Positions 38,694 through 56,242 are shown, counted from the stretch's first letter. The stretch: 64,000 nt of DNA from Candidatus Roizmanbacteria bacterium CG_4_9_14_0_2_um_filter_38_17 (GCA_002788855.1 PFSB01000006.1:99292-163291), one strand, 5' to 3'. Program-made: numbers and translations. The notes: a model not told the origin generated them from the sequence alone.

Positions 38694-38722
38694 AGTTAAT
38701 TGTTTTAGCTCTTATTAGCGGT

Positions 38723-38747
38723 CTATTAAAAACTGGGTTTTTAATAG
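38723..38747. repeat. REP-B palindrome (CTATTAAAAAC-TGG-GTTTTTAATAG)
   Basis: Perfect 11-bp stem, 3-nt loop. Confidence 0.75.
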
Positions 38748-38771
38748 AATATTTGGTATTCTTGTATTGTT

Positions 38772-39482: not shown

Positions 39483-39485
39483 GCT

Positions 39486-39510
39486 CTATTAAAAACCCAG
39501 TTTTTAATAG
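39486..39510. repeat. REP-B palindrome, inverted orientation (CTATTAAAAAC-CCA-GTTTTTAATAG)
   Basis: Exact reverse complement of copy at 38723. Confidence 0.75.
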
Positions 39511-39642
39511 AATTGCAGTGATTATGAAGAGGGTGTGAAGGATAAATCCGGTGATGTACCAGGAAGAGCTACTAGTACTAGCTCACATATAGGAAACTAG
39601 CAGTTTTTAGGTGGAAGATAAGACTTAAGATATAATACATCC

Positions 39643-40920
39643 ATGGCTTTAGTTACAAAGCTTCGTGGTCTGATTCCAAATAATTTAGTTAATACTTTTT
39701 GGCATTATCCTATTGCTTTGTTTGCGGCTTTGAGATATGGGTTTCCAGCTAAAAAACTTACTTTAATTGGGGTAACAGGTACAGATGGAAAGACTACTAC
39801 AACTTACATTATTAACCATTTGTTAAAAAAAGCTGGATATAAAACAGCTATGATCACGTCTGTATTGGCGGAGATAGCTGGCAAAACTAGTAATACAGGT
39901 TTTCATGTTACCAGTCCCCATCCTTGGCAAGTGCAGAAATATTTAGCTGAAGCAGTTAAATCTGGGGTAACTCATGCGATTCTAGAAGTTACTTCCCACG
40001 CATTGGATCAACACAGATTTGCCGGTTGTAGTTTTAGGTATGGAATTGTAACGAATATTAAACCTGACCACCTGGACTATCATAAAACTTATGATAACTA
40101 CTTTCATTCAAAGTCTAAGCTACTCTTAGGAGCTCAAAAAGCAGTTCTTAACAAAGACGATCAAAGCTTTAACAGGCTAAATACACTCTTAACAGGAAAA
40201 GATATTGTTACGTATAGCATTAAGGAGCAAGCAGACTTTACAGGTAAAAAAATAATACAAACAAGTATACCTGTCACTCTACCAGGAGATTACAATCTAT
40301 CCAATATTCTGGCCGCCACAGCCGTTGTAAATAATATTGGCCTCTCTATTGATGAAGTTAGTAAATATTTACCATCTTTTAAAGCAGTACCAGGCAGATT
40401 TAATGAAGTAGATATTAAAAAAGACTTTCGGGTAGTAATAGATTTTGCCCATACGCCCTATGGTTTACAGGCTTTACTTACTGCGCTGCGGAATCAAACT
40501 CAGGCAAGAATTATAGCTGTATTTGGTTGTGCGGCAGAACGTGGAGCAGATAGGCGAGAGATGGGCAGGGTAGGTGGTAAGTTGGCAGATATAACAATTA
40601 TTACAGCCGAGGATCCTCGTTTTGAAGGCGTGGAAAAGATAAGCGCTGTGATTGCAGGTTGGGCAGATAAAGCTGGAGCAGAAGAATTAAGCAGCAAACA
40701 GTTAGGAGATAGTAGCAAAAAAGATAAGCATGTATATACTAAAATAGCAGATCGGCAAGGGGCAATAAATGCTGCAATAGACATTGCAAAGCCTGGAGAT
40801 ATTATTGTTTTATGTGGAAAAGGACACGAGCAAAGTATGAATTTTAGAGGAGTTGAATATCCTTGGGATGAAAATAAGGCTGTTCAAAAAGCCCTAACTA
40901 AAAGATATGGATCTAAGTAA
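39643..40920 (+). CDS. murE: MurE-like Mur ligase (UDP-MurNAc-L-Ala-D-Glu:diamino acid ligase) lacking canonical N-terminal domain
   Basis: P-loop GVTGTDGKTTTTYII at residue 44, C-terminal AVFGCAAERGADRR...TAEDPRFE resembling MurE FGCGGDRD...DNPRxE region; in-frame stop 6 codons upstream of ATG. Confidence 0.7.
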   Translation: MALVTKLRGLIPNNLVNTFWHYPIALFAALRYGFPAKKLTLIGVTGTDGKTTTTYIINHLLKKAGYKTAMITSVLAEIAGKTSNTGFHVTSPHPWQVQKYLAEAVKSGVTHAILEVTSHALDQHRFAGCSFRYGIVTNIKPDHLDYHKTYDNYFHSKSKLLLGAQKAVLNKDDQSFNRLNTLLTGKDIVTYSIKEQADFTGKKIIQTSIPVTLPGDYNLSNILAATAVVNNIGLSIDEVSKYLPSFKAVPGRFNEVDIKKDFRVVIDFAHTPYGLQALLTALRNQTQARIIAVFGCAAERGADRREMGRVGGKLADITIITAEDPRFEGVEKISAVIAGWADKAGAEELSSKQLGDSSKKDKHVYTKIADRQGAINAAIDIAKPGDIIVLCGKGHEQSMNFRGVEYPWDENKAVQKALTKRYGSK

Positions 40921-42343
40921 AATTAAGCATATACATTTTGTTGGTATAAAAGGTGTAGGGATGACATCTCTAGCTGTATTAGCCCATGAGATGAAAAAAA
41001 AGGTGACTGGTTCTGATGTTTTGGAAGAATTTGTGACAGACAAAGTGCTTAAAGATCTGAAGATTGAAGTATTTGGGGAATTTAATGGAGAGAATTTTAA
41101 GAAGTTACTAACAAGATACAGCCCCCCAGAATTATTAGTAGTTACAACGGGTGCACACCAAGGATTTAATAATCTAGAGGTACAACATGCTAAAGAGCTA
41201 GGCTTTAAAGTAGTCTCCCACGCTCAAGCTTTGGGTATATTATCCATGCATAAGAATGTGATTGCTGTTGCTGGAACGCATGGTAAGTCAACAACAACTG
41301 CAATGATAGCGCATGTTTTAACTGAAGCTGGGACAGATCCATCATACTTAGTGGGAGTTGGAAGCATACCTTCATTACCAAATCCAGGTCATCACGGCAA
41401 GGGTAATTTGTTTGTAGTTGAAGCTGACGAATATGTAACTGATCCTCAAACAGATCCTACCCCACGGTTTCTGTGGCTTAAGCCTAAGATATTAGTAATA
41501 ACATCCGTCGAATATGATCACCCAGATGTTTATTCAGATGTTTACAAACTAGTTCAAGCATTTAGAGAGCTAGCGGAAAAAGTACCCATAGATGGTACCA
41601 TCATTGCCTGTATAGATAACCTAGGTGTGGAGAAAGCTCTAGAGGGCTCTAAGGCTAAGATTATTTGGTATGGATTCTCTCCTCGTGCAGATTATAGAAT
41701 CAAAAGTTATTATCCAACCTTATTATCTGGCGGGCAAGTGGTTTTAGAGTTTTGTGTTGAACACCAAAAACGTGAGTTATTTTGCACACAGCTGGCGGTA
41801 TCTGGTAGACATAATAGCTTAAATGCATTGGCATGCATTATTGCTTGTGTTGAGGTAGGAGTATCGTGGACTAAAGCACCCGAATACCTGAGAAGTTTTA
41901 CGGGTACGGGGCGCAGATTTGAGTTAAAAGGCCAACAAGGAGAGACCGTACTATACGATGATTACGCACATCATCCAACTGAGATTAAGGCTGTGCTGGC
42001 TATGGCTAAGGAGCTCTACGTGGGTTATCATATTATAGCTATATTTCAGCCCCATACATATTCACGCACTAAAGCTCTGTTTAAGGACTTTGCAAAATCT
42101 TTTACAGATGCGAATGAAACTTATTTATTAGATATTTTTTCCTCGGCCCGAGAAAAGAAAGATCCATCTATTTCATCACAAGAATTAGCCAAGGAAGCTA
42201 GTAAGCATGGGGCGCAGGTTAAATATGTACGAAGTGTTCTGGAGATGGTTAACAGGATAAAGTCGAAATTAGGGAGTAAACAGGTTATAATTACGATGGG
42301 AGCTGGAGATGTATACAAGATACACGATAAGCTAAAAGTCTAA
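40907..42343 (+). CDS. murC: UDP-N-acetylmuramate--L-alanine ligase MurC
   Basis: HFVGIKGVGMTSLAVLAHEMKKKVTGSD N-terminal signature, P-loop VAGTHGKSTTTAMI. Confidence 0.85.
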   Translation: MDLSKIKHIHFVGIKGVGMTSLAVLAHEMKKKVTGSDVLEEFVTDKVLKDLKIEVFGEFNGENFKKLLTRYSPPELLVVTTGAHQGFNNLEVQHAKELGFKVVSHAQALGILSMHKNVIAVAGTHGKSTTTAMIAHVLTEAGTDPSYLVGVGSIPSLPNPGHHGKGNLFVVEADEYVTDPQTDPTPRFLWLKPKILVITSVEYDHPDVYSDVYKLVQAFRELAEKVPIDGTIIACIDNLGVEKALEGSKAKIIWYGFSPRADYRIKSYYPTLLSGGQVVLEFCVEHQKRELFCTQLAVSGRHNSLNALACIIACVEVGVSWTKAPEYLRSFTGTGRRFELKGQQGETVLYDDYAHHPTEIKAVLAMAKELYVGYHIIAIFQPHTYSRTKALFKDFAKSFTDANETYLLDIFSSAREKKDPSISSQELAKEASKHGAQVKYVRSVLEMVNRIKSKLGSKQVIITMGAGDVYKIHDKLKV

Positions 42344-42344
42344 T

Positions 42345-43604
42345 ATGGCAAAATTTATAATAAATGGCAGAAATAGACTAGAAGGAAAAATTAAGGTTGC
42401 GGCTAATAAGAATGCGGTTTTGCCAGTAATGGCGGCAACGCTTCTTTGTGAAGGAACAAGCATTATTCATAACGTACCTGAAATAAAAGATGTTGAGGTA
42501 ATGGTGAATATTTTACGCAAGCTGGGAGCAAAAGTAACCTTAAGCGAGAGAACATTAACAGTAGACAGCTCAAATATAACCAATCTAGAAATACCACGTG
42601 ATCTAGCTCAACGCCTGAGAGCATCAGTATTATTGTTGGGACCATTACTTGCAAGAGCTGGAGAAGTTAAGCTTCCTCATCCTGGTGGTGATGTAATAGG
42701 TAGGCGTGGTATTTTCACACATATTTCTGCATTGACGAAGCTAGGGGTTCAAATTACTCAAGATGACCTCATGTACTATGGCAAGGTTATTCAGAAAAAT
42801 GCAGTGAAAGTATTTTTAGATGAACCCTCAGTGACAGGCACAGAAAATGTCATGATGTACGCGGCTTTAACAGATGGTGAAACAGTGATAGAGAATGCTG
42901 CAGCTGAACCTCATATTGTTGATCTATCTAGATTTTTAGCATCAGCTGGTGTAACTATCGAGGGAGCAGGAACTAGTAGAATTAGAATAATAGGAAAAAA
43001 GAGCTTAAAGGGCGGAGAGTATACAATTTCTCCTGACCCGATTGAAGCGGGCACATTTGCAATTGCTTCTGCAGTAACCAAAGGAGACCTGGAGATTGGA
43101 CCAATTGTACAAGATGACATGCAGATGATAAAGATAGTGCTGGAGAGATTTGGCGTTAATCTAAAGTTTGATAAAGATAAACTTCGTGTAAATTCCAAAG
43201 AAATAACAGCACCTCTTAGACCTGTGCAAGCAATGGTTTGGCCTGGCTTTCCAACTGACCTTATGAGTCCTTTAATCGTGCTTGCCACACAGGCAGAAAG
43301 GCAGACCCTGTGTCATGATCCTCTTTATGAGTCACGCATGTTCTTTGTTGATAAGCTAATTAGAATGGGGGCTCACATTACAATCTGTGATCCGCATCGT
43401 GTCATTGTGTATGGCAAGTCAAACTTGTATGGAAGAGAGCTGGCAAGTCCAGATATACGAGCAGGAATGGCCTTAGTTTTGGCGGCTTTAATAGCGGAGG
43501 GTAAGAGTGTTATTGATCAAGCAGAGATTGTTGAAAGGGGATACGAGAATATTGACAAAAGATTGCGTATAATAGGAGCAGATATTAAAAGATCTAATGA
43601 TTAA
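42345..43604 (+). CDS. murA: UDP-N-acetylglucosamine 1-carboxyvinyltransferase MurA
   Basis: FIINGRNRLEGKIKVAANKNAVLPVMAATLL, 419 aa EPSP-synthase fold. Confidence 0.9.
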   Translation: MAKFIINGRNRLEGKIKVAANKNAVLPVMAATLLCEGTSIIHNVPEIKDVEVMVNILRKLGAKVTLSERTLTVDSSNITNLEIPRDLAQRLRASVLLLGPLLARAGEVKLPHPGGDVIGRRGIFTHISALTKLGVQITQDDLMYYGKVIQKNAVKVFLDEPSVTGTENVMMYAALTDGETVIENAAAEPHIVDLSRFLASAGVTIEGAGTSRIRIIGKKSLKGGEYTISPDPIEAGTFAIASAVTKGDLEIGPIVQDDMQMIKIVLERFGVNLKFDKDKLRVNSKEITAPLRPVQAMVWPGFPTDLMSPLIVLATQAERQTLCHDPLYESRMFFVDKLIRMGAHITICDPHRVIVYGKSNLYGRELASPDIRAGMALVLAALIAEGKSVIDQAEIVERGYENIDKRLRIIGADIKRSND

Positions 43605-44841
43605 ACAAGCAGTTATATTGGCAGCAGGCGAGTCATCAAGGTTTCAGCCGTTGTCTGCATATAGGCATAAAGCAGAAATCCCATTGCTTGGTAAAAGTTT
43701 GCTCCAGCGCACGGTAGATAACTTACAGAGCATTGGTGTAGAAGAGGTTATTATAGTTCATTCGCCAGATCGAAGACCTCAGTTATTTGCTCATGAGTGT
43801 GAACTAAGATTTGTAGTTCTAGATAAACCTACAGGAATGGGAGATGCCCTGCTGGCAGCTTTAGATTTTTTGGATGATAAATATTTTGTGCTTCATCCCT
43901 ACCACTTTGCGGGAGTTAATTACATGAAAAAGATGGTTAAGGTTACAGCTGAAAATAATGGCTGTTTATTAGTAACTGATCCCGTAATAGGAAAAAGCGG
44001 TGGACTTGCCACGGTTGAAAAGGATGACATTGTCCAGGTTGAGGAGATGGAGTATAAGGGGGGAGATAATAAGAAATATGTTCTTGGAATATATTTACTA
44101 ACCAAAACATACACAGATATTTTGCAACAGACTAAAAAAGATCACTATAGTTTTGAACTTGCCCTTGATCAATATGCAAGAGCTAACAAATTATCCTGGT
44201 TTCAGGTTAGAGACTACTCAGTATCGCTAAAATACCCCTGGGACTTATTCAAGATCAAGGATACGCTTCTTCGCTCTAGTAAAGCAAGTATAGCGAAAAC
44301 AGCGAAAATTGACCCAACAGCCGTGATAGATGGGGTAGTTATTATCGATGAAAATGCGAAAATAGGAGCATATGCCGTTATTAGAGGTCCCGCATATATT
44401 GGTAGAAATGTACGAGTAGGAGATCATGCTTTGGTTCGTGATTTGACTACATTGGAAGAGGGCTCGATGGTGGGTGGTTCAGCAGAAGTAAAAAATAGTA
44501 TTGTTTTGGAAGAGTCTCATGTGCAGGGATATCTTGCAGACTCTATAGTGGGGCAAGAGGTGAGAATAGCTCATGGATTTGTTTCAGCTAATCGCCGCAT
44601 TGATAGGGAAACCATCTCTGTAGAGGTTAAAGGTAAAAAAATAGATACAAGGTTTTTTGCCCTGGGTTGTATAGTAGGTGATAATGTTTATACGGGTATA
44701 AATGTGGCAACTATGCCAGGGGTTAAAGTTGGTGAGAATTCAATAGTTGGCCCTCGTACCACTGTGTTTGCGAATGTCCCTCCAAATGTTCGGTATTATC
44801 AAAAAGCCGAATCCCACACAGAAAAGATTATAAAGAAGTAA
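43597..44841 (+). CDS. Bifunctional sugar-1-phosphate nucleotidyltransferase / hexapeptide acetyltransferase (GlmU-like)
   Basis: N-terminal AVILAAGESSRFQPL NTP-transferase motif and C-terminal LbH repeats; follows murA. Confidence 0.5.
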   Translation: MIKQAVILAAGESSRFQPLSAYRHKAEIPLLGKSLLQRTVDNLQSIGVEEVIIVHSPDRRPQLFAHECELRFVVLDKPTGMGDALLAALDFLDDKYFVLHPYHFAGVNYMKKMVKVTAENNGCLLVTDPVIGKSGGLATVEKDDIVQVEEMEYKGGDNKKYVLGIYLLTKTYTDILQQTKKDHYSFELALDQYARANKLSWFQVRDYSVSLKYPWDLFKIKDTLLRSSKASIAKTAKIDPTAVIDGVVIIDENAKIGAYAVIRGPAYIGRNVRVGDHALVRDLTTLEEGSMVGGSAEVKNSIVLEESHVQGYLADSIVGQEVRIAHGFVSANRRIDRETISVEVKGKKIDTRFFALGCIVGDNVYTGINVATMPGVKVGENSIVGPRTTVFANVPPNVRYYQKAESHTEKIIKK

Positions 44842-44847
44842 TCTGCT

Positions 44848-45555
44848 ATGAATAGTTATCATAGGCAACTATTGGTTAATATCCAGAAGAATTCAAGAAG
44901 AGAAGATTTGTCATTACACAATAGCCAGAAGTACTGTGGGACAAGTGACAAATTCTACAATCTTAAAACAGAAATCAAGCGTCAGGCTGCAAAAGAATTT
45001 TTTAGAAAGTATCTTGATTTATCTTTCGATGAGTATATTGAGCTTTTGGATTCTTTGAACACTGGAAAATCCTATGAAGAAAAAACTATTGCCTCAATGA
45101 TTTTATGTTTGTATAAAAACAACAAAGAACACATAGGTCCAGAACATTTAGATAAGTGGCTTGAAAATCTTGAAGGTTGGGCAGAAATTGATTCATTATG
45201 CCAGTCTTCTTTTGGTGCTGATGAAATATTACTAAAATGGAACAGTTGGGAAAAAGCCTTAATTACTTTCTCCAGATCAGATTTTATTAGCAAAAGAAGA
45301 GCGAGTCTTGTTTTGCTTGTAAAACCTGTAAGAGACGCTAAGAATGATAAGTTGTTTAGTCTTGCGCTGGAAAATATAGATAAATTAAAGAAAGAGAAAG
45401 ATATATTAATTACAAAAGCAATTTCGTGGTTGTTACGGGATATGATAAAAAACTATAGAAATGAAGTAAGGCATTACTTGAAGGAAAATAGAGAAACTCT
45501 CCCAAAAATTGCTATAAGGGAAGTAACAAGGAAACTAGAAACAGGAAAGAAGTAA
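44848..45555 (+). CDS. DNA alkylation repair protein (AlkC/AlkD-like HEAT-repeat glycosylase family)
   Basis: W/D-rich helical repeats (WLENLEGWAEIDSLC, KAISWLLRDM) typical of DNA_alkylation family. Confidence 0.55.
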   Translation: MNSYHRQLLVNIQKNSRREDLSLHNSQKYCGTSDKFYNLKTEIKRQAAKEFFRKYLDLSFDEYIELLDSLNTGKSYEEKTIASMILCLYKNNKEHIGPEHLDKWLENLEGWAEIDSLCQSSFGADEILLKWNSWEKALITFSRSDFISKRRASLVLLVKPVRDAKNDKLFSLALENIDKLKKEKDILITKAISWLLRDMIKNYRNEVRHYLKENRETLPKIAIREVTRKLETGKK

Positions 45556-45572
45556 GCAGTTAGATTATAAAT

Positions 45573-45797
45573 ATGGAAGCTAGAGAAGCAAGTATTATAA
45601 CAGGTGTAATTGCAGAGAAATATGGTCTGGATAACATAGAAGTGAGTGGTTGGCTACATAATGCATTAGATCCTGGACTAGGTCCAGAAAGCAATCAAAA
45701 AGCGAGAGGATCGCTAAATCATGCTCTTGACGAATCGGATGTAACCTATTTACTTGGTATTTGGGCTGATTGTATAGCCGACTCCAACTCTGCTTAA
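45573..45797 (+). CDS. Hypothetical small protein
   Basis: 74-aa ORF, no recognisable motif. Confidence 0.3.
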   Translation: MEAREASIITGVIAEKYGLDNIEVSGWLHNALDPGLGPESNQKARGSLNHALDESDVTYLLGIWADCIADSNSA

Positions 45798-45824
45798 ATA
45801 TCTGGATTGGATCTAGTTCTGGCT

Positions 45825-45890
45825 CTATTAAAAACTGGGTTTTTAATAGGTTGTTAAATCAAGCTATTAAGGGGGTCAACTATTTAAATT
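45825..45890. repeat. REP-B palindrome plus about 40-bp extension; left copy of direct repeat bounding 1.5-kb cassette
   Basis: CTATTAAAAACTGGGTTTTTAATAG then TTGTTAAATCAAGCTATTAAGGGGGTC...TTTAAATT; matches 47377..47443. Confidence 0.7.
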
Positions 45891-46013
45891 ACAGGAAGTG
45901 ATTTCCATTATTGGGACACAGAGCTCGTAATACTTTTTAAACTTCAAAAAAAGTTCCAAAATTTTTGTCATTCAAAAGTTAACCTCATTTTAAGTTCGAA
46001 TCCCACTCGGCCG

Positions 46014-46022
46014 TGGTATAAT
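46014..46022 (+). promoter_or_regulatory. Extended -10 (TGGTATAAT) for cassette operon
   Basis: 6 nt upstream of ATG 46029, leaderless configuration. Confidence 0.4.
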
Positions 46023-46028
46023 AATTGT

Positions 46029-46469
46029 ATGGAAACCTTTCTTAATTTTCTAACAGTATTCGGGCTTGGAAGCGTTATAACTGTATTTATCACACACAAA
46101 CTAAAACAATCCTCAGAATCAAAAATAAAAATGAGAGAATTAAAAGAAAATCAATATAAAAGTCTTCTTAATAATTTAATGGGTTTTTTTGAGGGATGGG
46201 AAGACTATGCAGTTGCAGATAAAAAAGCTCGCAAGAAACAATTCTTGTGGGAAGTTTATACAAGCGTTCCTGTATATGCATCAGATGTGGTTATAAGGCT
46301 TTGCTATGAGTTTATAGAAAGCCATAACAAAGAAGGGAAATTGAAAGGAGAGAGCAATAAAATTTATTCAAAAATCGTAATTGCTATGAGAATGGAATTA
46401 AATAAAATTTATGGTCAGCCAGATACTACACTTTCAGAGAAAGACATTAAAGTTCTTAAAGTTGATTAA
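46029..46469 (+). CDS. Hypothetical membrane-anchored protein (1 TM plus 120-aa soluble domain)
   Basis: N-terminal FLNFLTVFGLGSVITVFITH helix; no known motif. Confidence 0.45.
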   Translation: METFLNFLTVFGLGSVITVFITHKLKQSSESKIKMRELKENQYKSLLNNLMGFFEGWEDYAVADKKARKKQFLWEVYTSVPVYASDVVIRLCYEFIESHNKEGKLKGESNKIYSKIVIAMRMELNKIYGQPDTTLSEKDIKVLKVD

Positions 46470-46508
46470 TGATTCAAAGCAGAGCAGACAAAATTACAAA
46501 AACTGACA

Positions 46509-47330
46509 ATGAATATTTTTCAGAGTAAGTACTTCAACGTTGTTCTTCCAGTTTTATTTGTTTTGTTTCTTTTGCTGCTACTTGTCTATGGTTGTTTAAT
46601 TGGCATATATGATGTTATAACTTTAGCTGTAAATGCCGTCCTTATGCTCCTTGCTACGCTAATTGCAATTTCACTACCTTTGTATGCAAGCGCGAAAAAT
46701 GAACAAAAACGCAGGGATAAGGAACATGAAATGATTTATGTATCTGTATCCCGATACGTTGGCGGTGAAATCTTGGATAATGTTATAGAGATTCAAGATA
46801 TTCTAAAAAATAATGAAAAATCTCTAGGCCAACTGGATAAACAAAATCTTTCTATGTCAGAAAGAGATAAAAAAATAGTTACCGCTTCTATATGGAAAAC
46901 GGCTTCAGAAATCCTTGTTGGTTCGCTTCAGGATAAACATCACAACAATATGGTTATGTCTGGTTTAGTAGCCAAAATTCCCGATGACGCTGTTGGCAAC
47001 GGAATTCGTGATACTTATCAAAAAATGGATAATCTAAAAAAGCGACTCAAAAGCATAACGATGTTTTTTGGAATGCTTATATCTCCCCAAGTTGGGGTTT
47101 CTAAAACATTCTTGGATTATCAGTTTAATACGAAACTGCAAGAAGGTATTACTGCTGTTGAATTGGATATAAAGATATTTAGCGATTCTGCAGAAAAAAC
47201 TAGAAAAGACATTAACAAGCTACTGAAACAATATGGGAAAGAGATTAAAATTATAGCTTATGAAAAAGTACATAACTCTGAAAAAGGATCTAGAAAAACT
47301 GAAAAATCTTCCATTTCTTCAAAAAAATGA
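46509..47330 (+). CDS. Hypothetical membrane protein (2 N-terminal TM plus helical soluble domain, Lys/Ser-rich tail)
   Basis: VLPVLFVLFLLLLLVYGCLIGIYDVITLAVNAVLMLLATLIAISLPLY; no known motif. Confidence 0.45.
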   Translation: MNIFQSKYFNVVLPVLFVLFLLLLLVYGCLIGIYDVITLAVNAVLMLLATLIAISLPLYASAKNEQKRRDKEHEMIYVSVSRYVGGEILDNVIEIQDILKNNEKSLGQLDKQNLSMSERDKKIVTASIWKTASEILVGSLQDKHHNNMVMSGLVAKIPDDAVGNGIRDTYQKMDNLKKRLKSITMFFGMLISPQVGVSKTFLDYQFNTKLQEGITAVELDIKIFSDSAEKTRKDINKLLKQYGKEIKIIAYEKVHNSEKGSRKTEKSSISSKK

Positions 47331-47376
47331 GCAAGAGATTGTTGATAAATAGCTATAGCTATGGTTGAAAGATGTT

Positions 47377-47443
47377 TCTATTAAAAACTGGGTTTTAAAT
47401 AGATTGTTAAATCAAGCTTTTAAGGAGGTCTACCCTTTAAATT
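47377..47443. repeat. REP-B variant plus extension; right copy of direct repeat bounding cassette
   Basis: CTATTAAAAACTGGGTTTTAAATAG then ATTGTTAAATCAAGCTTTTAAGGAGGTC...TTTAAATT. Confidence 0.7.
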
Positions 47444-47579
47444 TCAGACCCTTTAAATCCAGATAATGGGGTCAGCCACCTATTTAGAAAAAATACAAGG
47501 ACAAATCTTGTAGAAAATATATATGCAAATTTTCTACTCAATTGGGAAACGGCACCTTTTTTCATTTAACGCTCAACTT

Positions 47580-47616
47580 AAGGCAAGGTCTTCCATTTCA
47601 TGTAAGGCCTTGCCTT
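47580..47616. terminator. Hairpin AAGGCAAGG-N19-CCTTGCCTT, possible bidirectional terminator
   Basis: 9-bp perfect stem immediately 3' of minus-strand TrmB stop (47625). Confidence 0.3.
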
Positions 47617-47624
47617 GTTTCGCG

Positions 47625-48383
47625 TTAGGGGAGGAGGGACCAGAGGGATTGGAAGATTATTTTCTGGGTTTGGACTAGTCCGGGTTCTTCAATGATAACT
47701 GCATATGGTAGTTCATCTTCGGTGATAGAGATGATGGCATATTTATCTGTATAGATGATGATATAGCTTGAGGAGTTGGAGCTGGAGTTTTGTATCCATT
47801 TTCGCTGTGCTAACTGCACTTCTTCTCCACCTTTTCCTAAGGCAATTACATTTACCTGGATACCTTTGGTAATTCTTTGTTTAGTAAAATTAGGAAATTG
47901 TTGATAGAGGTATTTTCTGATTGGCAAAGCTGAGTAAGCATAATATGTTTTATCTTTAGTATTCTCAACAGAGTGGAGAATATCTAGGAGTACTTTTTCG
48001 ATACCTTCTTCTCCCTCATAATATTTAACCGTGGGACTTGATCCAGTAATTTTAGATGCCTCAAGTTCTGGTATGACTTTTGTACTAAGGGATGAAATTA
48101 GCTGTTTAATCCTGGTTTCTTTTTCTTTAGCAAGATTTGTTAGTTTTTTAGGAGATTCAGCTAGATAACGTTTTCGCTGTCCACTCATCTGAAAGCATAC
48201 GAGGCCTTTTTTTACGAGTTCTCTTAGTATTTCGTGAGTAGTTCCCCTATTGATTTTAGTATCTGCAGCTAGCTCCCGGATGGAGACAGGGCCAAGCTTT
48301 AGGAGTGATTTGTAAACAATATATTCCTTACTAGATATACCCAGCAGACTAAATTGTGAATCCATTGGGTAATTATATAACAC
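47625..48383 (-). CDS. TrmB-family (sugar-responsive) transcriptional regulator
   Basis: N-terminal winged HTH ...YKSLLKLGPVSIRELAADTKINRGTTHEILRELVKKGLV..., 252 aa with C-terminal sensor-like domain. Confidence 0.65.
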   Translation of the reverse strand: MLYNYPMDSQFSLLGISSKEYIVYKSLLKLGPVSIRELAADTKINRGTTHEILRELVKKGLVCFQMSGQRKRYLAESPKKLTNLAKEKETRIKQLISSLSTKVIPELEASKITGSSPTVKYYEGEEGIEKVLLDILHSVENTKDKTYYAYSALPIRKYLYQQFPNFTKQRITKGIQVNVIALGKGGEEVQLAQRKWIQNSSSNSSSYIIIYTDKYAIISITEDELPYAVIIEEPGLVQTQKIIFQSLWSLLP

Positions 48384-48480
48384 TTGTCAATAAAATGTTG
48401 ACAAAAACTGTTGACATTGCATATGTGCCGAACTATGCTTGGTCTTTGTTATTAATTGTCAATATATTAACTGACTGACT
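48384..48480. promoter_or_regulatory. Divergent trmB-like/glmS control region with inverted repeat TTGTCAA-N7-TTGACAA and glmS promoter TTGACA-17-TATGCT
   Basis: TTGTCAA 48384..48390, TTGACAA 48398..48404, TTGACA 48411..48416, TATGCT 48434..48439, extra TTGTCAA 48456..48462. Confidence 0.45.
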
Positions 48481-50250
48481 ATGTGTGGGATATTTGGATA
48501 TACTGGAAAAAATAATAATGCAGCGGATATAGTCCTTGAGGGGCTTAAAAAACTTGAGTATCGTGGATATGATAGCTGGGGTGTGGCAGTCCCGGGTCCT
48601 AGCGATGTAATCTCTGTAAGAAAAAAAATAGGTAAGATTGGTAATGCTACGATTGGCAACTTACCAGATGCATCTACCGGAATTGGACATACACGCTGGG
48701 CGACTCATGGTGGGGTAACAGAAAAGAATGCTCATCCGCATTTATCCTGTGATAAAAAAATTGCAGTAATTCATAATGGCATCATTGAAAATTACGATAA
48801 GCTACGTAGTAAGCTACAGAGCCAAAATCATGTATTTGTATCTGATACAGACTCTGAGGTAGCAGTACATCTGATAGAAGAATACAGGATGACTAATGCA
48901 TTATTAGAAGCTGTACGGAAGGCTTTTTTGGATTTTAGTGGACTAAATGCTGTAATTGCTCTGGAGGTTGGTGAAGAAGGTTTTGTGGCTATTAAAAATG
49001 GTTCACCCGTAGTAGTTGGGTTCGGTCAGGACGGAAACTATTTAGCTAGCGATGCAGTGGCGCTTAGTGCTCATACTAGAACAGTTTATTACCTTAAGGA
49101 TAATGAACTTGTGCATGTAGGCAAAAAAGAGGTACTGCTGTTTAATGCAGAAACTGGCAAGCAAAAGGGTTTTAAGAAGATAAAATTAGATTGGAGTGTA
49201 GAAGCTGCTGATTTAGGAAAGTACAAATACTTTATGCTTAAAGAGATAAATGAGCAACCAGATATTATTTCTCGTATTCTTAAAGAAGATATTGAGCAGG
49301 CAATACAGTTAGCTAAAGTGATTAAAAAATCATATGGTACTTATTTAGTTGGGTGTGGTACTGCTGCATATGCCTGTCTAGCTGGTTCTTATCTGTTTTC
49401 AAAAATAGCTAAAAGACATGTGAACTGGGCAGTAGGGAGTGAATTTGGCTACCAATTAGATTTTCTAACAGATAAAAGCTTCGTATTGGCTTTATCCCAA
49501 TCCGGAGAGACGATGGATATCCTTGAAGCAGTAAAAAAAGCTAAAACAAGAAATGCAAAAATTGGTGCTCTGGTTAATGTAATGGGGTCTACTCTTTACA
49601 GAGAGGCTGACCATAAAATGTTAATAGGGGCTGGCCCTGAAAAAGGAGTAGCCTCAACGAAAGTATTTGTTTCCAAGCTTGCTCATCTTGTGTTGCTTTC
49701 ATATATACTGGAGGGTAAAAACTTGGAAGGAACAGCAGTTCTTAAAAAAGCAGAAGTATCTGCGAGGGATGTTTTGAATGAAAGCACTACAAGAAAAATT
49801 AAAAAGTTAGCAAACAAATTGTATAAAAAAGATCATATGTATATAGTTGGCAGGGGTTTATCATACCCAGCGAGTTTGGAAGCAGCACTAAAGATAAAGG
49901 AAATTTCATATATCCATGCGGAGGGATTTGCCGCCGGGGAGCTAAAACATGGGGTCATAGCATTAATCGAAAAAGGAACACCTTGTATGGTATATGCCCC
50001 GAATGATGAAACATATGGCGCAAATCTTGCAGGCGCAATGGAGATGAAAGCGCGTGGTGGTTATATTATTGGAGTGTCACATAAGGATCATGAAGTATTT
50101 GATTATTATATTGAGGTAAAAGACGCAGCTGAGGCAACCATTATTCCTAATGTGATGGTTGCGCAGTTGCTCTCGTATTATTTAGCAGTTAAGCTAGGAC
50201 TTGATCCAGATAAACCTCGTAACCTAGCTAAATCTGTTACGGTTAAATAA
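48481..50250 (+). CDS. glmS: Glutamine--fructose-6-phosphate aminotransferase GlmS
   Basis: MCGIFGY N-terminal Ntn-amidotransferase start, two SIS domains, C-terminal ...KSVTVK. Confidence 0.95.
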   Translation: MCGIFGYTGKNNNAADIVLEGLKKLEYRGYDSWGVAVPGPSDVISVRKKIGKIGNATIGNLPDASTGIGHTRWATHGGVTEKNAHPHLSCDKKIAVIHNGIIENYDKLRSKLQSQNHVFVSDTDSEVAVHLIEEYRMTNALLEAVRKAFLDFSGLNAVIALEVGEEGFVAIKNGSPVVVGFGQDGNYLASDAVALSAHTRTVYYLKDNELVHVGKKEVLLFNAETGKQKGFKKIKLDWSVEAADLGKYKYFMLKEINEQPDIISRILKEDIEQAIQLAKVIKKSYGTYLVGCGTAAYACLAGSYLFSKIAKRHVNWAVGSEFGYQLDFLTDKSFVLALSQSGETMDILEAVKKAKTRNAKIGALVNVMGSTLYREADHKMLIGAGPEKGVASTKVFVSKLAHLVLLSYILEGKNLEGTAVLKKAEVSARDVLNESTTRKIKKLANKLYKKDHMYIVGRGLSYPASLEAALKIKEISYIHAEGFAAGELKHGVIALIEKGTPCMVYAPNDETYGANLAGAMEMKARGGYIIGVSHKDHEVFDYYIEVKDAAEATIIPNVMVAQLLSYYLAVKLGLDPDKPRNLAKSVTVK

Positions 50251-50269
50251 TAAGGTATACTTAAATATT

Positions 50270-51244
50270 ATGGCGAAGAAGATCGTTGTTATTGGTGGAG
50301 GAACGGGCACTTATGTGGCCTTAACGGGGTTGCGTGAATATGATGTGTCACTAACTGCAGTGGTAACAATGATGGACTCTGGTGGGAGTACTGGGCGTCT
50401 CCGTGATCAACTTGGGGTACTACCTCCTGGGGATATTCGCCAAGCTCTCGTGGCTTTATCAGAATCCGATGAAGTTTGGCGAAAACTGTTTACTTACCGT
50501 TTTGATAATGGAGACCTAAGTGGTCATAACTTTGGCAACTTGTTTATTTCAGCTCTTGAGAAAATGACCGGTGACTTTTCTGAAGCATTAAAATTGGCTT
50601 CAGAGCTTTTGCAAATTAAAGGCCAAGTACTTCCTGTTACCTATTCAAAATCTGATCTCTGTGTGGAGTTAGAAGATGGGCAAGTGATTGAAGGAGAAAC
50701 ATATATTGATGAACTAGAGTCAAATAAAAAGAGATCTAAAATTAAAAGAGCGTATCTTAAACCAACTGCTCCAATTAATGAGGCTGTAGTGGCAGCGATT
50801 CAGGAAGCAGATCTAGTTCTAATTGGTCCGGGTGATCTTTACACAAGTTTATTAGTTAATTTATTAGTTGATGGCGTGGTTGATGCTTTATCATCAACTA
50901 AGGCAAAAGTTGTGTATGCCTTAAATCTAATGACAAAATATGGTCAGACAACAAGTTACACTGGGCAAGATCACGTGTCAGATCTTGAGCAATACCTTGG
51001 TAAAGGCGTATTGGACTATGTATTAGTTAATAATGCTAGGCCCGACGATGACACATTGAAGATATACGAAAAGGAGCAAGAAATTCTTAACGTTGATAAT
51101 CTAAAAGAGAATGGATATAGAATTGTGCATGCAGATATGTTGGCGGATGAGAAGATTCAGAAACCAGCAGCTGATAAACTAAAGAGAAGTTTAATTCGGC
51201 ACGATCCTGACAAACTTGCCAAGGTAATAATGTCTTTAGGCTAA
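50270..51244 (+). CDS. YvcK/CofD-like gluconeogenesis-factor family protein (UDP-sugar binding, cell-wall homeostasis)
   Basis: KIVVIGGGTGTYVALTGL...AVVTMMDSGGSTGRLRD signature of UPF0052/YvcK. Confidence 0.8.
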   Translation: MAKKIVVIGGGTGTYVALTGLREYDVSLTAVVTMMDSGGSTGRLRDQLGVLPPGDIRQALVALSESDEVWRKLFTYRFDNGDLSGHNFGNLFISALEKMTGDFSEALKLASELLQIKGQVLPVTYSKSDLCVELEDGQVIEGETYIDELESNKKRSKIKRAYLKPTAPINEAVVAAIQEADLVLIGPGDLYTSLLVNLLVDGVVDALSSTKAKVVYALNLMTKYGQTTSYTGQDHVSDLEQYLGKGVLDYVLVNNARPDDDTLKIYEKEQEILNVDNLKENGYRIVHADMLADEKIQKPAADKLKRSLIRHDPDKLAKVIMSLG

Positions 51245-51292
51245 TTAATGCTTAAATATAGCCATTTCTTGTTATAATCAGGCTATAAGATT

Positions 51293-52009
51293 ATGAACAA
51301 GGGCAAAACTATTGTAATACTACATGGCTGGAAACTTAGCTCCCAGAGATATAATCCACTAGTCAAAGAACTTAGGAAGCTTGGGTATAGAGTATATATT
51401 CCGGATATGCCAGGTAATGGGGTTGCGAAGTTACCTAAGAATCCATTTACACTTGATGACTATGTTGAGTACGTATTAGGGTATTTGTCTACGAATAAAC
51501 TACGAAGATTTACTTTAATTGGTCATTCTTTCGGAGGAAGAGTGGGGATCAAATTAGTTGCTAAAAACCCCGAGCTTATAAATAAGCTGGTCCTAACTGG
51601 TACTCCAGGTGTGATCCCTGTGTCATCAACTAAAATTAAGATGTTTTTGGTGTTAGCGAAAATTGGTAATATGATTTTTAACTTACCTGTCCTAGAGTTA
51701 TTCAAGGACAGTGCAAGAAGAGGCTTATATAGACTAGCGAAATCCAGTGATTACTACCATACAGATGGAGTTATGAGACAAACTTTTAAAAATATTATTA
51801 GAGCTGATCTAGTAAAATCTATGTCAAAATTAAAGCTTCCAGTTACTCTCGTCTGGGGTGAGCATGATGAGGCAGTTCCTGTAAATGTAGCTAAAGTGAT
51901 GCAAAAAATGATTAAGGGATCAAAACTTGTGGTGATACCCGGATCTAGTCACGATGTTATCTGGGCAAACCCGCTTAGGTTTATTGATGCGTTTAATACT
52001 GATAAATAA
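51293..52009 (+). CDS. Alpha/beta-hydrolase fold protein
   Basis: GHSFGG nucleophile elbow, 238 aa. Confidence 0.65.
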   Translation: MNKGKTIVILHGWKLSSQRYNPLVKELRKLGYRVYIPDMPGNGVAKLPKNPFTLDDYVEYVLGYLSTNKLRRFTLIGHSFGGRVGIKLVAKNPELINKLVLTGTPGVIPVSSTKIKMFLVLAKIGNMIFNLPVLELFKDSARRGLYRLAKSSDYYHTDGVMRQTFKNIIRADLVKSMSKLKLPVTLVWGEHDEAVPVNVAKVMQKMIKGSKLVVIPGSSHDVIWANPLRFIDAFNTDK

Positions 52010-53616
52010 TGATAAATATATTGTCATATATTGTTCTAGCAGCATTTGTAATTCGTACTATACGAAATACTCTTTACCACATATTTTTGTGGCAAAACAA
52101 TGAATATCGTCTAGACATGCTTAAGGTTTATCTAAAGACGAGTGTTGGCAAAAGAATTGTTTTTGGTCCCATGGCAAAGATTAAATTTGTTTTATTAGCT
52201 CTATTTATCTTTGCTTTAATAGGGGAGTTTAATATTATAGCTAGCTTGGCTATCTGGAGTTTTGGGGTTTTATTTATTGTGGAAGCATGGCGAAATCTAG
52301 GCGAGTTTATGTCAGGTTCTTTGCCTCTTCCTAAGTTTACAGTCAAAGTTGTGCTGATCATATTAATAACATTACTTTTTCAGTTTATTCTGATATTGTC
52401 CTCATCTCCACGTTTTGCTTTAGATCTTATGCCATTTATGGATAAGCTGCTTGCTGTATCCGTTGCTGCGCAGATTGGGTTACTAAGCATCCCAACTCGA
52501 ATTAGGGATGCATTGTTGGAGTATTTTGCCATGGAGAAAATGGTTAGATTTAAAAGAATTCGCGTAGTGGGAATTACCGGAAGTTATGGAAAATCTACAA
52601 CTAAGGAGTTTTTGTACCAGTTGGTTAAAGATGAGTTCAATGTAGTTAAAACTTCTAAGAATATAAACAAGCCAGTGGGTATTGCAAAGCTTATTTTGCA
52701 AGAAGTCAGTGACAAAACTGAGCTACTTATAGTTGAAGCAGCGGCTGACAAACACCATGGTCGGAACCAGGTGGTGCGTATTACAAATATGTTAGCAGAT
52801 AAGCTGAGTGTGGCTGTGATAACAGGAGTAAATCAGCAACATCTAGCGCTGTTTAAATCTAGACAGGAAATAATTCAAACAAAATATAGTTTGGTGACAG
52901 GTCTTAATGATGAGGGCGTTGCGGTTCTTAAGGTAGATAGTCGTTCTATGCGGAGGCTTGCAAAAAAAGCCAAAAAAGACAGTTTAAAAACGGTGTTATG
53001 CGGAACGGATAAACGCCTCTATGCCTATGGGGACAAAATTGTGCTATCTAGTTCTGGGTCTAAATTTGAATTAGTTATCGGAAAGAATAGAGCTAAATTA
53101 AATACAGATCTTCTAGGGTTAGCAAACGTGGAAGGCATTGTTGTAGCGGCAACAGTGGCTATGCAGCTAGGTGTTTCGTGGAATAGGATAAAGACTAAGA
53201 TAAAAAAACTTACTCCGCCACTTAATTCTCTTAATGTAGTTAAAAAACGTGGCTTAGTATTGATTGACGATACCTACAGCGCAAATCCTGATGGTGTAAT
53301 TGCAGCTTTAGACTTTTTATCACTCTATTCTGATACCAAAATATTAGTGCTTAATCCATTAGCTGAACTTGGAGAGGATTCCGTTTTAGTACATAAGAAC
53401 ATAGTCAAGTATGCGGCAAAAATTTGTGATGCCATCATCTTAACAAATGGTAATAACTACGAAGCTGTTATGAAAGCTGTAAAAGAAGATGTTGTTGTAG
53501 TGGTAAAGAATAAGAATCAAGTGAAAGATTACATAAAGAACAACTTTAAAGGTAAAAAGGTTATATTATTTGAAGGAAGGGAGACCGCGGGTGCTTTGAG
53601 CACTTACAAAAGTTAA
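52009..53616 (+). CDS. murF: MurF-like UDP-MurNAc-tripeptide--D-Ala-D-Ala ligase with polytopic N-terminal membrane domain replacing canonical domain 1
   Basis: About 5 TM helices in first 170 aa, then VVGITGSYGKSTTKEF P-loop, NINKPVGIAKLIL and VNQQHLALFKSRQEIIQTKYSL matching MurF central-domain motifs. Confidence 0.65.
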   Translation: MINILSYIVLAAFVIRTIRNTLYHIFLWQNNEYRLDMLKVYLKTSVGKRIVFGPMAKIKFVLLALFIFALIGEFNIIASLAIWSFGVLFIVEAWRNLGEFMSGSLPLPKFTVKVVLIILITLLFQFILILSSSPRFALDLMPFMDKLLAVSVAAQIGLLSIPTRIRDALLEYFAMEKMVRFKRIRVVGITGSYGKSTTKEFLYQLVKDEFNVVKTSKNINKPVGIAKLILQEVSDKTELLIVEAAADKHHGRNQVVRITNMLADKLSVAVITGVNQQHLALFKSRQEIIQTKYSLVTGLNDEGVAVLKVDSRSMRRLAKKAKKDSLKTVLCGTDKRLYAYGDKIVLSSSGSKFELVIGKNRAKLNTDLLGLANVEGIVVAATVAMQLGVSWNRIKTKIKKLTPPLNSLNVVKKRGLVLIDDTYSANPDGVIAALDFLSLYSDTKILVLNPLAELGEDSVLVHKNIVKYAAKICDAIILTNGNNYEAVMKAVKEDVVVVVKNKNQVKDYIKNNFKGKKVILFEGRETAGALSTYKS

Positions 53617-53618
53617 GT

Positions 53619-55881: not shown

Positions 55882-55894
55882 TGAAATTATAGAG

Positions 55895-56239: not shown

Positions 56240-56242
56240 TAT

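What the first reader, a model, noticed from the sequence alone, without database searches (positions are those of the whole stretch)
39643..53616. Mur ligases with remodelled N-termini: membrane-anchored MurF and N-domain-less MurE
The MurF homolog (52009..53616) has about 170 aa of polytopic membrane sequence before its P-loop (GITGSYGKSTTKEF). A normal MurF has an about 100-aa soluble UDP-binding domain 1 there. The MurE homolog (39643) has its P-loop at residue 44, with an in-frame stop 6 codons upstream and a REP/RAYT immediately 5', so domain 1 is absent. Domain 1 normally binds the UDP moiety. Loss or replacement suggests that substrates are recognised differently (membrane-proximal, perhaps lipid-linked) or that insertions have eroded these genes.
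Basis: partly seen in the sequence, partly recalled or inferred. Interest (0 to 1): 0.55.

Follow-up and report, generated by a model that had tools for sequence, protein, structure and literature searches.

The report
Membrane-anchored MurF, domain-less MurE
Two cell-wall peptide ligases of this ultra-small (CPR) bacterium really lack the usual nucleotide-binding first domain: the short MurE is the norm across the CPR, and the membrane-embedded MurF belongs to a large family spread over several phyla that I could not find described in the literature I was able to search.

Summary
MurE (39643..40920, 425 aa) starts about 20 residues before the point where domain 2 begins in solved MurE structures. 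MurF (52009..53616, 535 aa) has about 165 residues of five-helix membrane domain in place of domain 1.

The "erosion by insertion" reading is refuted. A 73%-identical relative without the RAYT has the same 425-aa MurE, 22 nt after ftsI. Of the 120 closest MurE clusters, 118 have the P-loop at residues 33-59.

The membrane domain of MurF is conserved. Its profile finds 1,248 clusters at 50% identity, always N-terminal to a MurF-type ligase. It is predicted N-out/C-in, with invariant cytoplasmic motifs (WQxKEYRxDR, PxFTxK). AlphaFold2 gives pLDDT 93.7, and no solved fold matches it convincingly.

The family extends beyond the CPR to Clostridia/Tissierellales isolates, Poribacteria, NC10 and others. 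It nearly always follows an alpha/beta-hydrolase gene. Downstream lies Ddl in non-CPR loci (31/31) or a DegT-like plus FemAB-like pair in CPR loci (Ddl 0/40).

Most likely it is the housekeeping D-Ala-D-Ala-adding enzyme, working at the membrane next to MraY. Whether its acceptor is UDP-linked or lipid-linked is untested. I rate it a new variant of a known kind and could not find it in the searchable literature.

The parts
39643..40920 (+). MurE without domain 1 (425 aa). A short N-terminal segment (residues 1-23) precedes the linker and P-loop.
   Evidence: TIGR01085 murE scores 333.9 bits, above its cut-off of 257.3. PF01225 is absent. The same length is seen in the RAYT-free relative L087.
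39769..39798 (+). MurE P-loop GVTGTDGKTT (residues 43-52)
   Evidence: T45, G46, T47, G49, K50 and T51 are invariant in 84 homologs.
38772..39482 (+). RAYT-like Y1 transposase gene interrupted by an in-frame TGA at 38874-38876. It is inserted between ftsI and murE.
   Evidence: PF01797 35.4 bits; NF047646 37.9 bits, below its cut-off of 80; translation YRR*DECLYW.
38723..38747 (+). REP-like perfect palindrome, left flank of the RAYT
   Evidence: 5 copies in the window, 0 expected.
39486..39510 (+). REP-like palindrome, right flank of the RAYT, with the loop inverted (CCA instead of TGG)
40907..42343 (+). MurC with a normal N-terminal domain (internal control: not all Mur ligases here are remodelled)
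   Evidence: PF01225 at residues 8-114; TIGR01082 387 bits, cut-off 335.
51293..52009 (+). Alpha/beta-hydrolase with an apparent serine nucleophile motif (GHSFG). Its stop overlaps the murF start (TAATG). It is a conserved upstream partner of TM-MurF.
   Evidence: It lies upstream in 34/36 CPR-type and 30/31 Ddl-type loci.
52009..53616 (+). Membrane-anchored MurF (535 aa)
52009..52500 (+). N-terminal five-helix membrane domain (residues 1-164), predicted N-out/C-in
   Evidence: K+R per loop: 5.9, 4.7 and 6.2 on the inside, 0.1-0.8 on the outside.
52087..52119 (+). Cytoplasmic motif 1, LWQNNEYRLDM (family consensus LWQLKEYRxDR). Q29, E32 and Y33 are invariant.
   Evidence: The non-CPR equivalent is 'mlQ...Y'.
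52330..52347 (+). Cytoplasmic motif 2, PKFTVK (consensus PxFTxK). P108 is invariant; T111 and K113 are conserved in at least 90%.
   Evidence: The non-CPR equivalent is 'kkplV.T.R.kRl'.
52570..52596 (+). MurF P-loop GITGSYGKS (residues 188-196)
53619..54815 (+). DegT/DnrJ-type PLP aminotransferase-like protein with a hydrophobic segment at about residues 232-250. It is the conserved downstream partner in the CPR.
   Evidence: It lies downstream in 34/40 CPR-type loci and 0/31 Ddl-type loci.
54808..55881 (+). FemAB-family (aminoacyl-tRNA-dependent peptidyltransferase-like) protein, overlapping degT by 8 nt
   Evidence: weak match to S. aureus FemX 6snr. It is present in 36/39 CPR-type loci.
55712..56239 (+). 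DgkA-type lipid kinase. The true start is probably later than this ORF start, because the Pfam match covers residues 70-170.
56243..57277 (+). MraY, the membrane enzyme that uses the MurF product. It lies in the same gene string.
58988..60406 (+). MurD with its normal N-terminal domain (second internal control)
   Evidence: PF21799; TIGR01087 344 bits, cut-off 212.

Best explanation
Both genes are intact, lineage-typical housekeeping enzymes, not decayed genes.

(1) MurE. The CPR radiation uses a MurE that consists only of the ATP-binding and amino-acid-binding domains. These are preceded by a conserved segment of about 20-40 residues (..IP..LVN..kH.P.A..). It is a soluble enzyme encoded directly after ftsI. 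The RAYT/REP element in this window landed in the ftsI-murE spacer without touching the gene.

(2) MurF. It belongs to a family found in several phyla, in which domain 1 was replaced by a five-helix membrane domain. The N-terminus is outside and the ligase is inside. The last helix (134-180) continues as a basic stalk into the ligase.

Two invariant polar, basic motifs lie on the cytoplasmic face: WQxKEYRxDR after helix 1 and PxFTxK before helix 4. By inference they sit where domain 1 would normally hold the nucleotide-diphosphate end of the substrate.

The enzyme adds the terminal dipeptide to the MurNAc-tripeptide precursor at the inner face of the membrane. It thereby delivers its product next to MraY, which is encoded in the same gene string.

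A translationally coupled alpha/beta-hydrolase with an apparent serine nucleophile motif is an obligatory partner of unknown role.

Shown: the architecture, its conservation, the predicted topology and the gene neighbourhood. Inferred: catalytic role, substrate, the function of the motifs and any complex with MraY or the hydrolase.
For: - Architecture and family assignment.
- Fold: the ligase part is closest to solved MurF (4qf5, TM-score on target 0.73, 376 alignment columns). The whole model has pLDDT 93.7 and pTM 0.90.
- The MurF signature IDDTYSANP is conserved.
- Conservation of TM-MurF: 120 nearest clusters have a median P-loop position of 189, and 111 of them have 3-6 hydrophobic segments before it. 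A profile of the membrane domain alone finds 1,248 clusters at 50% identity (870 at E<=1e-10), always at the N-terminus of proteins of about 520-570 aa. The shorter hits I inspected break off inside the family's own sequence, consistent with fragments.
- Motifs and topology.
- Housekeeping role: in the window the order is ABH, murF, degT, femAB, dgkA, mraY. In Poribacteria the order is ftsI, murE (full length), ABH, TM-murF, ddl, mraY, murD. In Clostridia the order is ABH, TM-murF, ddl, like the separate ddl-murF operon that I recall from Bacillus. Ddl lies immediately downstream in 31/31 non-CPR loci.
- MurE: 118 of the 120 nearest clusters have the P-loop at 33-59 and 119 lack PF01225. There are 43 invariant columns, including catalytic-domain motifs. 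The tight ftsI-murE junction recurs in three other CPR lineages.
- MurC and MurD in the same window keep their N-domains, so there is no general decay.
Against: - No biochemical data exist for any member.
- I could not scan a whole genome, so I cannot show that TM-MurF is the only MurF-type ligase in these organisms. One CPR lineage (L086) has a different, soluble N-domain-less MurF-like gene next to mraY.
- The murF model score (200 bits) is below NCBI's curated cut-off of 288.6. Part of this follows from the missing N-domain.
- I had no model coordinates, so the position of the conserved motifs relative to the active-site cleft is inferred, not seen.
- How a MurE without domain 1 binds UDP-MurNAc-dipeptide is unexplained.
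Confidence: 0.72

Rival explanations
1. Lipid-linked acceptor (MurT-like logic). TM-MurF has lost the UDP-binding domain because it no longer uses a UDP-linked substrate. MraY first transfers phospho-MurNAc-tripeptide to undecaprenyl phosphate. TM-MurF then adds the dipeptide to lipid I- or lipid II-tripeptide in the membrane plane. The basic motifs at the membrane face bind the undecaprenyl pyrophosphate.
For: - Domain 1 is replaced by an integral membrane domain whose only invariant residues are polar or basic and lie at the cytoplasmic interface.
- The gene lies in one string with dgkA and mraY.
- From my own knowledge, MurT lacks domain 1 and acts on lipid II (papers listed, not read here).
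- The neighbouring DegT-like protein also has a strongly hydrophobic segment, and FemAB relatives act on lipid II.
Against: - Poribacteria pair TM-MurF with a canonical, UDP-domain-bearing MurE, so the precursor is still UDP-linked one step earlier.
- Loss of domain 1 does not require membrane contact. CPR MurE and the L086 MurF-like ligase are soluble and domain-1-less.
- The ligase part is not MurT-like (MurT models score below 40 bits against a cut-off of 800).
- There is no direct evidence.
Confidence: 0.15
2. Specialised paralogue. TM-MurF is not the housekeeping MurF. Together with the alpha/beta-hydrolase (plus DegT and FemAB in the CPR) it forms a membrane-bound module that edits, repairs or diversifies stem peptides. 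For example, it might add a non-canonical C-terminal residue or dipeptide, or re-extend trimmed precursors.
For: - A hydrolase partner that canonical murF operons lack, as far as I know, is almost always present.
- In the CPR the Ddl position is taken by DegT plus FemAB, with Ddl in 0 of 40 loci.
- The murF model score is below its cut-off.
- A different MurF-like gene sits next to mraY in one CPR lineage.
Against: - No second murF lies in the 64-kb window, which holds murA, murC, murD, murE, murG, mraY, ftsW, ftsI, glmS and a glmU-like gene.
- In Poribacteria and NC10 it occupies the exact murF slot of the dcw cluster, followed by ddl and mraY.
- Ddl is adjacent in 31/31 non-CPR loci.
- Public annotation of isolates names it MurF.
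Confidence: 0.1
3. Erosion or artefact. The RAYT insertion truncated MurE, and the hydrophobic N-terminus of MurF is a mis-joined upstream ORF or a frameshift.
For: A RAYT/REP element lies 160 nt upstream of murE, and there is an in-frame stop 8 codons before its ATG.
Against: - The RAYT-free relative has an identical-length MurE.
- 118 of the 120 closest clusters have the P-loop at 33-59.
- The TM-MurF architecture is conserved end to end in hundreds of clusters and several phyla.
- AlphaFold2 models the whole chain with pLDDT 93.7.
- No domain-1 remnant exists in any frame.
Confidence: 0.02

Closest known systems
Canonical MurF (UDP-MurNAc-tripeptide:D-Ala-D-Ala ligase; e.g. E. coli 1GG4, A. 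baumannii 4QF5, P. aeruginosa 4CVM)
   Same: The central P-loop domain and the C-terminal domain are shared. It gives the best fold and sequence match. The DDTYxANP motif is present. The genes for Ddl and MraY are neighbours.
   Different: The soluble domain 1 of about 80-100 aa is replaced by a five-helix membrane domain of about 165 aa with its own invariant motifs. An alpha/beta-hydrolase partner is almost always encoded upstream. The score is below NCBI's murF cut-off.
Canonical MurE (e.g. E. coli 1E8C, M. tuberculosis 2WTZ, T. maritima 4BUB)
   Same: Domains 2 and 3 are shared. The score is above the TIGR01085 cut-off. It keeps an EDPR motif that retains the arginine of the DNPR motif of meso-DAP-type enzymes (own knowledge). 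It sits in the ftsI-murE position of the dcw cluster.
   Different: Domain 1 (residues 1 to about 88 of E. coli MurE) is entirely missing. It is replaced by a conserved CPR-specific segment of about 20-40 residues.
MurT of the MurT/GatD lipid II amidotransferase
   Same: It is a Mur-ligase-fold enzyme without domain 1, and (from my own knowledge) it works on a membrane-bound, lipid-linked substrate. This is the precedent for the lipid-linked reading.
   Different: No DUF1727-type C-domain, no GatD partner and no sequence affinity were found (MurT models score below 40 bits against a cut-off of 800). MurT has no transmembrane domain.
Natural Mur fusions and proposed Mur-MraY-MurG complexes (MurE-MurF of Bordetella, PMC10214165)
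   Same: The shared theme is physical coupling of late cytoplasmic steps to speed hand-over of precursors towards the membrane.
   Different: Those are soluble chimeras that keep all domains. Here the coupling to the membrane is built into MurF itself, at the cost of domain 1. That paper does not mention transmembrane forms.
REP-associated tyrosine transposases (RAYT) with flanking REP palindromes
   Same: It has a Y1_Tnp domain. It is flanked by inverted copies of a 25-nt palindrome that is repeated in intergenic regions of the window.
   Different: The ORF carries an in-frame TGA. Its score is below the NCBIfam RAYT cut-off (37.9 against 80). It is irrelevant to the MurE architecture.

Membership tests
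Mur ligase family | Central ATP-binding domain with P-loop (PF08245) and C-terminal domain (PF02875) | tested here: met
   MurE: 146 and 89.7 bits. MurF: 110 and 43.4 bits.
MurF | Best match to MurF models and structures among all Mur ligases | tested here: met
   (TIGR01143 is the top hit at 200 bits; the next non-MurF model, murD, scores 72). (the top 10 PDB folds are all MurF).
MurF | Score above the curated family cut-off (TIGR01143, 288.6 bits) | tested here: not met
   200.1 bits. The alignment covers profile positions 64-405 only, because the N-domain is absent.
MurF | N-terminal soluble domain 1 that binds the UDP moiety | tested here: not met
   residues 1 to about 164 are transmembrane helices.
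MurF | Genomic linkage to ddl and/or mraY | tested here: met
   mraY lies 2.6 kb downstream in the same gene string. In non-CPR members ddl is immediately downstream in 31/31 loci.
MurF | ATP-dependent addition of D-Ala-D-Ala to UDP-MurNAc-tripeptide | not testable with these tools
   This needs an enzyme assay.
MurE | Score above the curated subfamily cut-off (TIGR01085, 257.3 bits) | tested here: met
   333.9 bits.
MurE | N-terminal domain 1 (PF01225) | tested here: not met
   The alignment to solved MurE begins at residue 88-134 of the solved chains.
MurE | Position in the dcw cluster after ftsI | tested here: met
   in the window (with the RAYT inserted); in relatives.
MurT (lipid II isoglutaminyl synthase subunit) | Sequence membership, DUF1727 C-domain and GatD partner | tested here: not met
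   (38.5 bits against a cut-off of 800 for MurE; no hit for MurF). No GatD-like gene was identified among the neighbours examined.
RAYT/REP element | Y1 transposase flanked by REP palindromes that recur in the genome | tested here: met
RAYT/REP element | Intact transposase ORF | tested here: not met
   in-frame TGA at 38874-38876.

The most novel reading that the evidence does not exclude
In a large part of the bacterial world the last 'cytoplasmic' step of peptidoglycan precursor synthesis is carried out by an integral membrane MurF that acts on a lipid-linked (post-MraY) tripeptide. This would reverse the textbook order of MurF and MraY. In addition, in the CPR the usual dipeptide supplier Ddl has been displaced in this operon by a PLP enzyme (DegT-like) plus an aminoacyl-tRNA-dependent FemAB-like transferase, so the stem peptide terminus would be made by a different chemistry.
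Probability: 0.1. Interest if true: 0.9.

Novelty: new variant of a known kind. Interest (0 to 1): 0.6.

Why it matters
Textbooks and drug-discovery work treat MurC to MurF as soluble three-domain enzymes whose first domain holds the UDP of the substrate. Two things here do not fit that picture.

First, domain 1 appears to be dispensable for MurE across a whole radiation of bacteria.

Second, a membrane-integral MurF with its own invariant motifs and a fixed hydrolase partner appears to be the housekeeping enzyme in the CPR, Poribacteria, NC10 and many Clostridia/Tissierellales, including cultured isolates. This gives a natural system to test how Mur ligases recognise their acceptor, whether precursor hand-over to MraY is physically coupled, and whether the order of MurF and MraY can differ.

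It also flags a possible replacement of Ddl by DegT plus FemAB in the CPR. MurF inhibitors aimed at the domain 1/2 cleft would not be expected to fit these enzymes.

Tried and rejected
- **Domain 1 in another frame or place.** tblastn of a full-length relative's N-domain against the window gave nothing (best E 1.6).
- **Amphipathic membrane-binding helix in MurE.** The hydrophobic moment is at most 0.33 and there is no hydrophobic peak. I rejected this idea.
- **Literature.** Eight full-text searches used combinations of MurF/MurE, transmembrane, CPR/Patescibacteria, ddl, FemX, DegT and dcw cluster. I also did targeted text searches within five papers. None described either architecture. Megrian et al. 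2022 (dcw cluster evolution, Nat Microbiol) is not held and could be relevant.
- **"Ddl is absent from the CPR".** Not tenable as a general statement, because one CPR dcw cluster (L085) encodes a Ddl. Only the operon-level exclusivity stands.
- **Closest solved relatives of the hydrolase, DegT-like and FemAB-like proteins.** They are generic esterases, sugar aminotransferases and FemX (weak). None gives a specific function.
- **Lipocone/VanZ-type domain.** The lipocone paper does not mention MurF.

Full report
**Where the window comes from.** The MurE protein is 100% identical to a protein named from [quoted passage not shown]. The window therefore comes from a Microgenomates/CPR genome with about 37% G+C. 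Almost all genes lie on the + strand.

The window holds a stretched division and cell-wall (dcw) cluster, in this order:
- rsmH, ftsL-like, ftsI
- RAYT (inserted)
- murE, murC, murA, a glmU-like gene
- unrelated genes
- glmS, a yvcK/cofD-like gene
- alpha/beta-hydrolase, murF, a degT-like gene, a femAB-like gene, dgkA, mraY
- an ABC-F gene, murD, ftsW, murG

**Check of the observation.** Both descriptions hold.

The MurF homolog (52009..53616, 535 aa) has Pfam hits only for the middle and C-terminal Mur ligase domains, at residues 189-384 and 409-523. The murF model TIGR01143 aligns from its position 64 at residue 173. E. coli MurF residue 80 aligns with residue 165. Everything before that is hydrophobic helix.

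The MurE homolog (39643..40920, 425 aa) lacks PF01225. It aligns to MurE models from profile position 73-89, and to solved MurE from about residue 88-96. Its P-loop is at residues 43-52. The in-frame stop is 8 codons, not 6, before the ATG.

The REP/RAYT element is real. A Y1 transposase-like ORF lies at 38772..39482 and is interrupted by one TGA. It lies between two inverted copies of a 25-nt perfect palindrome. That palindrome occurs five times in the window against none expected.

No domain-1-like sequence is encoded in any frame of the window. MurC and MurD in the same window keep their normal N-domains.

**MurE: not eroded, but the CPR norm.** Among the 120 closest clusters at 90% identity, the P-loop lies at residues 33-59 in 118. 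One cluster carries a longer upstream extension, and only one (505 aa) has PF01225.

An alignment of 84 homologs has 43 invariant columns through the catalytic domains. It also has a conserved short N-terminal segment, with H21, A28 and P35 near-invariant.

The decisive control is a 73%-identical relative (L087). It has mraZ, rsmH, ftsL and ftsI, then 22 nt, then a murE of 425 aa followed by murC, murA and glmU, with no RAYT. Two more distant CPR lineages show the same tight junction, with MurE of 411 and 431 aa. The RAYT therefore inserted into the ftsI-murE spacer and did not shorten the gene.

MurE has no hydrophobic segment and no amphipathic N-terminal helix, so it is a soluble two-domain enzyme. 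The EDPR motif keeps the arginine that, from my own knowledge, marks meso-DAP-type MurE (DNPR in E. coli).

**MurF: a conserved membrane-integral form.** Most of the 120 nearest clusters are 480-600 aa long and align over 95-100% of the query. The median P-loop position is 189. In 111 of them there are 3-6 hydrophobic segments before it.

AlphaFold2 on a 96-sequence alignment gives pLDDT 93.7 and pTM 0.90. It predicts helices 2-30, 35-42, 45-52, 54-72, 75-102, 112-131 and a 47-residue helix at 134-180 that runs into the ligase domain. The ligase part superposes best on solved MurF structures.

Within the membrane domain:
- The invariant residues are Q29, E32, Y33, P108 and A174.
- The near-invariant residues are W28, K31, R37, T111, K113 and K177.
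- Together they form the motifs (L/F)WQxKEYRxDR just after helix 1 and PxFTxK just before helix 4.

Counts of lysine plus arginine per loop are 5.9, 4.7 and 6.2 for loop 1, loop 3 and the stalk. They are 0.1-0.8 for the N-terminus, loop 2 and loop 4. The predicted topology is therefore N-out/C-in with five helices. Both motifs then face the cytoplasm on the same side as the ATP-dependent ligase.

A profile of the membrane domain alone, searched against 1.84 billion representatives, finds 1,248 clusters at 50% identity (870 at E<=1e-10). The hit always starts at residue about 1 of a protein that is usually 520-570 aa. The shorter hits I inspected break off inside the family's own sequence, either within the membrane domain or after the MurF P-loop, which is consistent with fragments. 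I found no case of this domain fused to anything other than a MurF-type ligase.

**The family is wider than the CPR and has fixed neighbours.** A scan of one genome per species returned 575 confirmed relatives, of which 80 loci were kept.

Full-length matches come mostly from Patescibacteria: records labelled Saccharibacteria, Gottesmanbacteria, Yanofskybacteria, Wildermuthbacteria, Staskawiczbacteria, Nealsonbacteria, Gribaldobacteria and Paceibacterota. One record is labelled Chloroflexota.

Loci where only the ligase part aligned come from Clostridia/Tissierellales, Poribacteria, NC10/Methylomirabilota, Muribaculaceae and others. These too encode proteins of about 470-560 aa, most with 170-208 residues before the P-loop. 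They carry recognisably the same motifs: 'mlQ...Y', 'kkplV.T.R.kRl' and 'Ak.kl'.

Cultured carriers include Gottschalkia acidurici 9a, Caloranaerobacter, Tepidimicrobium, Anaerosalibacter and Sporosalibacterium. In all of them the protein is annotated simply as MurF.

Across 84 loci, an alpha/beta-hydrolase gene lies directly upstream in 34/36 CPR-type and 30/31 other loci that have room for it. In the window its stop overlaps the murF start (TAATG).

Downstream the two groups are mutually exclusive:

| Locus type | Ddl | DegT-like | FemAB-like |
|---|---|---|---|
| Non-CPR (Ddl-type) | 31/31 | 0/31 | 0/30 |
| CPR (DegT/FemAB-type) | 0/40 | 34/40 | 36/39 |

In Poribacteria the order is ftsI, murE (full length, with PF01225), hydrolase, TM-murF, ddl, mraY, murD. 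That is the canonical murF slot. In Sporosalibacterium the order is hydrolase, TM-murF, ddl. This resembles the separate ddl-murF operon that I recall from Bacillus.

**Mechanism proposed.** I take TM-MurF to be the housekeeping dipeptide-adding enzyme (confidence about 0.7). It is held at the inner face of the membrane by a domain that replaced domain 1.

The invariant cytoplasmic motifs are the best candidates for a substitute binding site for the diphosphate end of the acceptor, or for a docking surface for MraY or the hydrolase. This is inference, because I had no model coordinates.

Two rivals remain open. In the first, the acceptor is lipid-linked, so MurF acts after MraY. This is the logic of MurT, which also lacks domain 1. 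I give it about 0.15. In the second, the protein is a specialised paralogue within a hydrolase/DegT/FemAB editing module. I give it about 0.10.

Three points argue against a simple link between loss of domain 1 and a lipid substrate. CPR MurE is soluble. Poribacteria combine canonical MurE with TM-MurF. One CPR lineage (L086) has a 416-aa soluble MurF-like ligase next to mraY, with its P-loop at residue about 33 and no N-domain at all. Domain 1 thus seems dispensable in this radiation, and the membrane domain looks like an addition with its own function.

**What is known.** I found no description of a transmembrane MurF or of a domain-1-less MurE in eight full-text searches and in the papers I opened. 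Databases carry these proteins under the plain names MurF and MurE. The sequences are therefore known, but the architecture appears to be uncommented.

**Verdict.** The erosion reading is refuted, and the altered-recognition reading remains open. I rate the finding a new variant of a known kind with moderately high interest (0.6).

The strongest new facts are:
- the breadth of the TM-MurF family
- its invariant motifs
- the fixed hydrolase partner
- the exclusive alternation downstream between Ddl and DegT plus FemAB

Noticed in passing
window 51293..55881; loci L001, L002, L004-L035, L077 versus L038-L084: There is a conserved operon. It reads alpha/beta-hydrolase, TM-MurF, DegT-like, FemAB-like in the CPR (Ddl in 0/40 loci). 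It reads alpha/beta-hydrolase, TM-MurF, Ddl in Clostridia, Poribacteria, NC10 and Muribaculaceae (Ddl in 31/31 loci, DegT and FemAB in 0). This suggests that DegT plus FemAB occupy the functional slot of Ddl in the CPR. However, one CPR dcw cluster (L085) does encode a Ddl.
   Followed up: partly
window 38772..39482 (TGA at 38874-38876): The RAYT-like transposase ORF is interrupted by a single in-frame TGA (…ESDYRR*DECLYW…). It is either a pseudogene or a recoded codon. From my memory of other Y1 transposases, an aromatic residue is usual at this position; I did not check this here.
   Followed up: partly
window 38723, 39486, 45825, 47378, 58835: Five copies of the 25-nt perfect palindrome CTATTAAAAAC-NNN-GTTTTTAATAG lie in intergenic regions (0 expected). 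The copies at 45825 and 47378 bracket two ORFs with no Pfam hit (46029..46469 and 46509..47330).
   Followed up: partly
window 53619..54815: The DegT-like PLP enzyme matches sugar aminotransferases strongly only over residues about 40-210. It carries a strongly hydrophobic segment at about residues 232-250 (Kyte-Doolittle 2.31). This suggests membrane association, which as far as I know is unusual for this family.
   Followed up: no
L086 9899..11149: Another CPR lineage has a 416-aa soluble MurF-like ligase directly upstream of mraY. Its P-loop GVVGSYGKT is at residue about 33, and it has neither domain 1 nor a membrane domain. It ends in a Cys-rich tail (CKVNSCHFYHPCKNC).
   Followed up: no
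L085 6233..7021: In one CPR dcw cluster a 262-aa protein with a weak ATE_C (arginyl-tRNA protein transferase-like) hit sits between the short murE and murC.
   Followed up: no
window 1..64000: No Ddl homolog was found in the 64-kb window, and no murB was identified among the genes I annotated, although nearly all other peptidoglycan precursor genes are here. GC skew is positive throughout and almost all genes are on the + strand.
   Followed up: partly
window 55712..56239: The mechanical ORF for the DgkA-type kinase starts 170 nt inside femAB. The Pfam match covers only residues 70-170, so the real start is probably the ATG near 55895.
   Followed up: no
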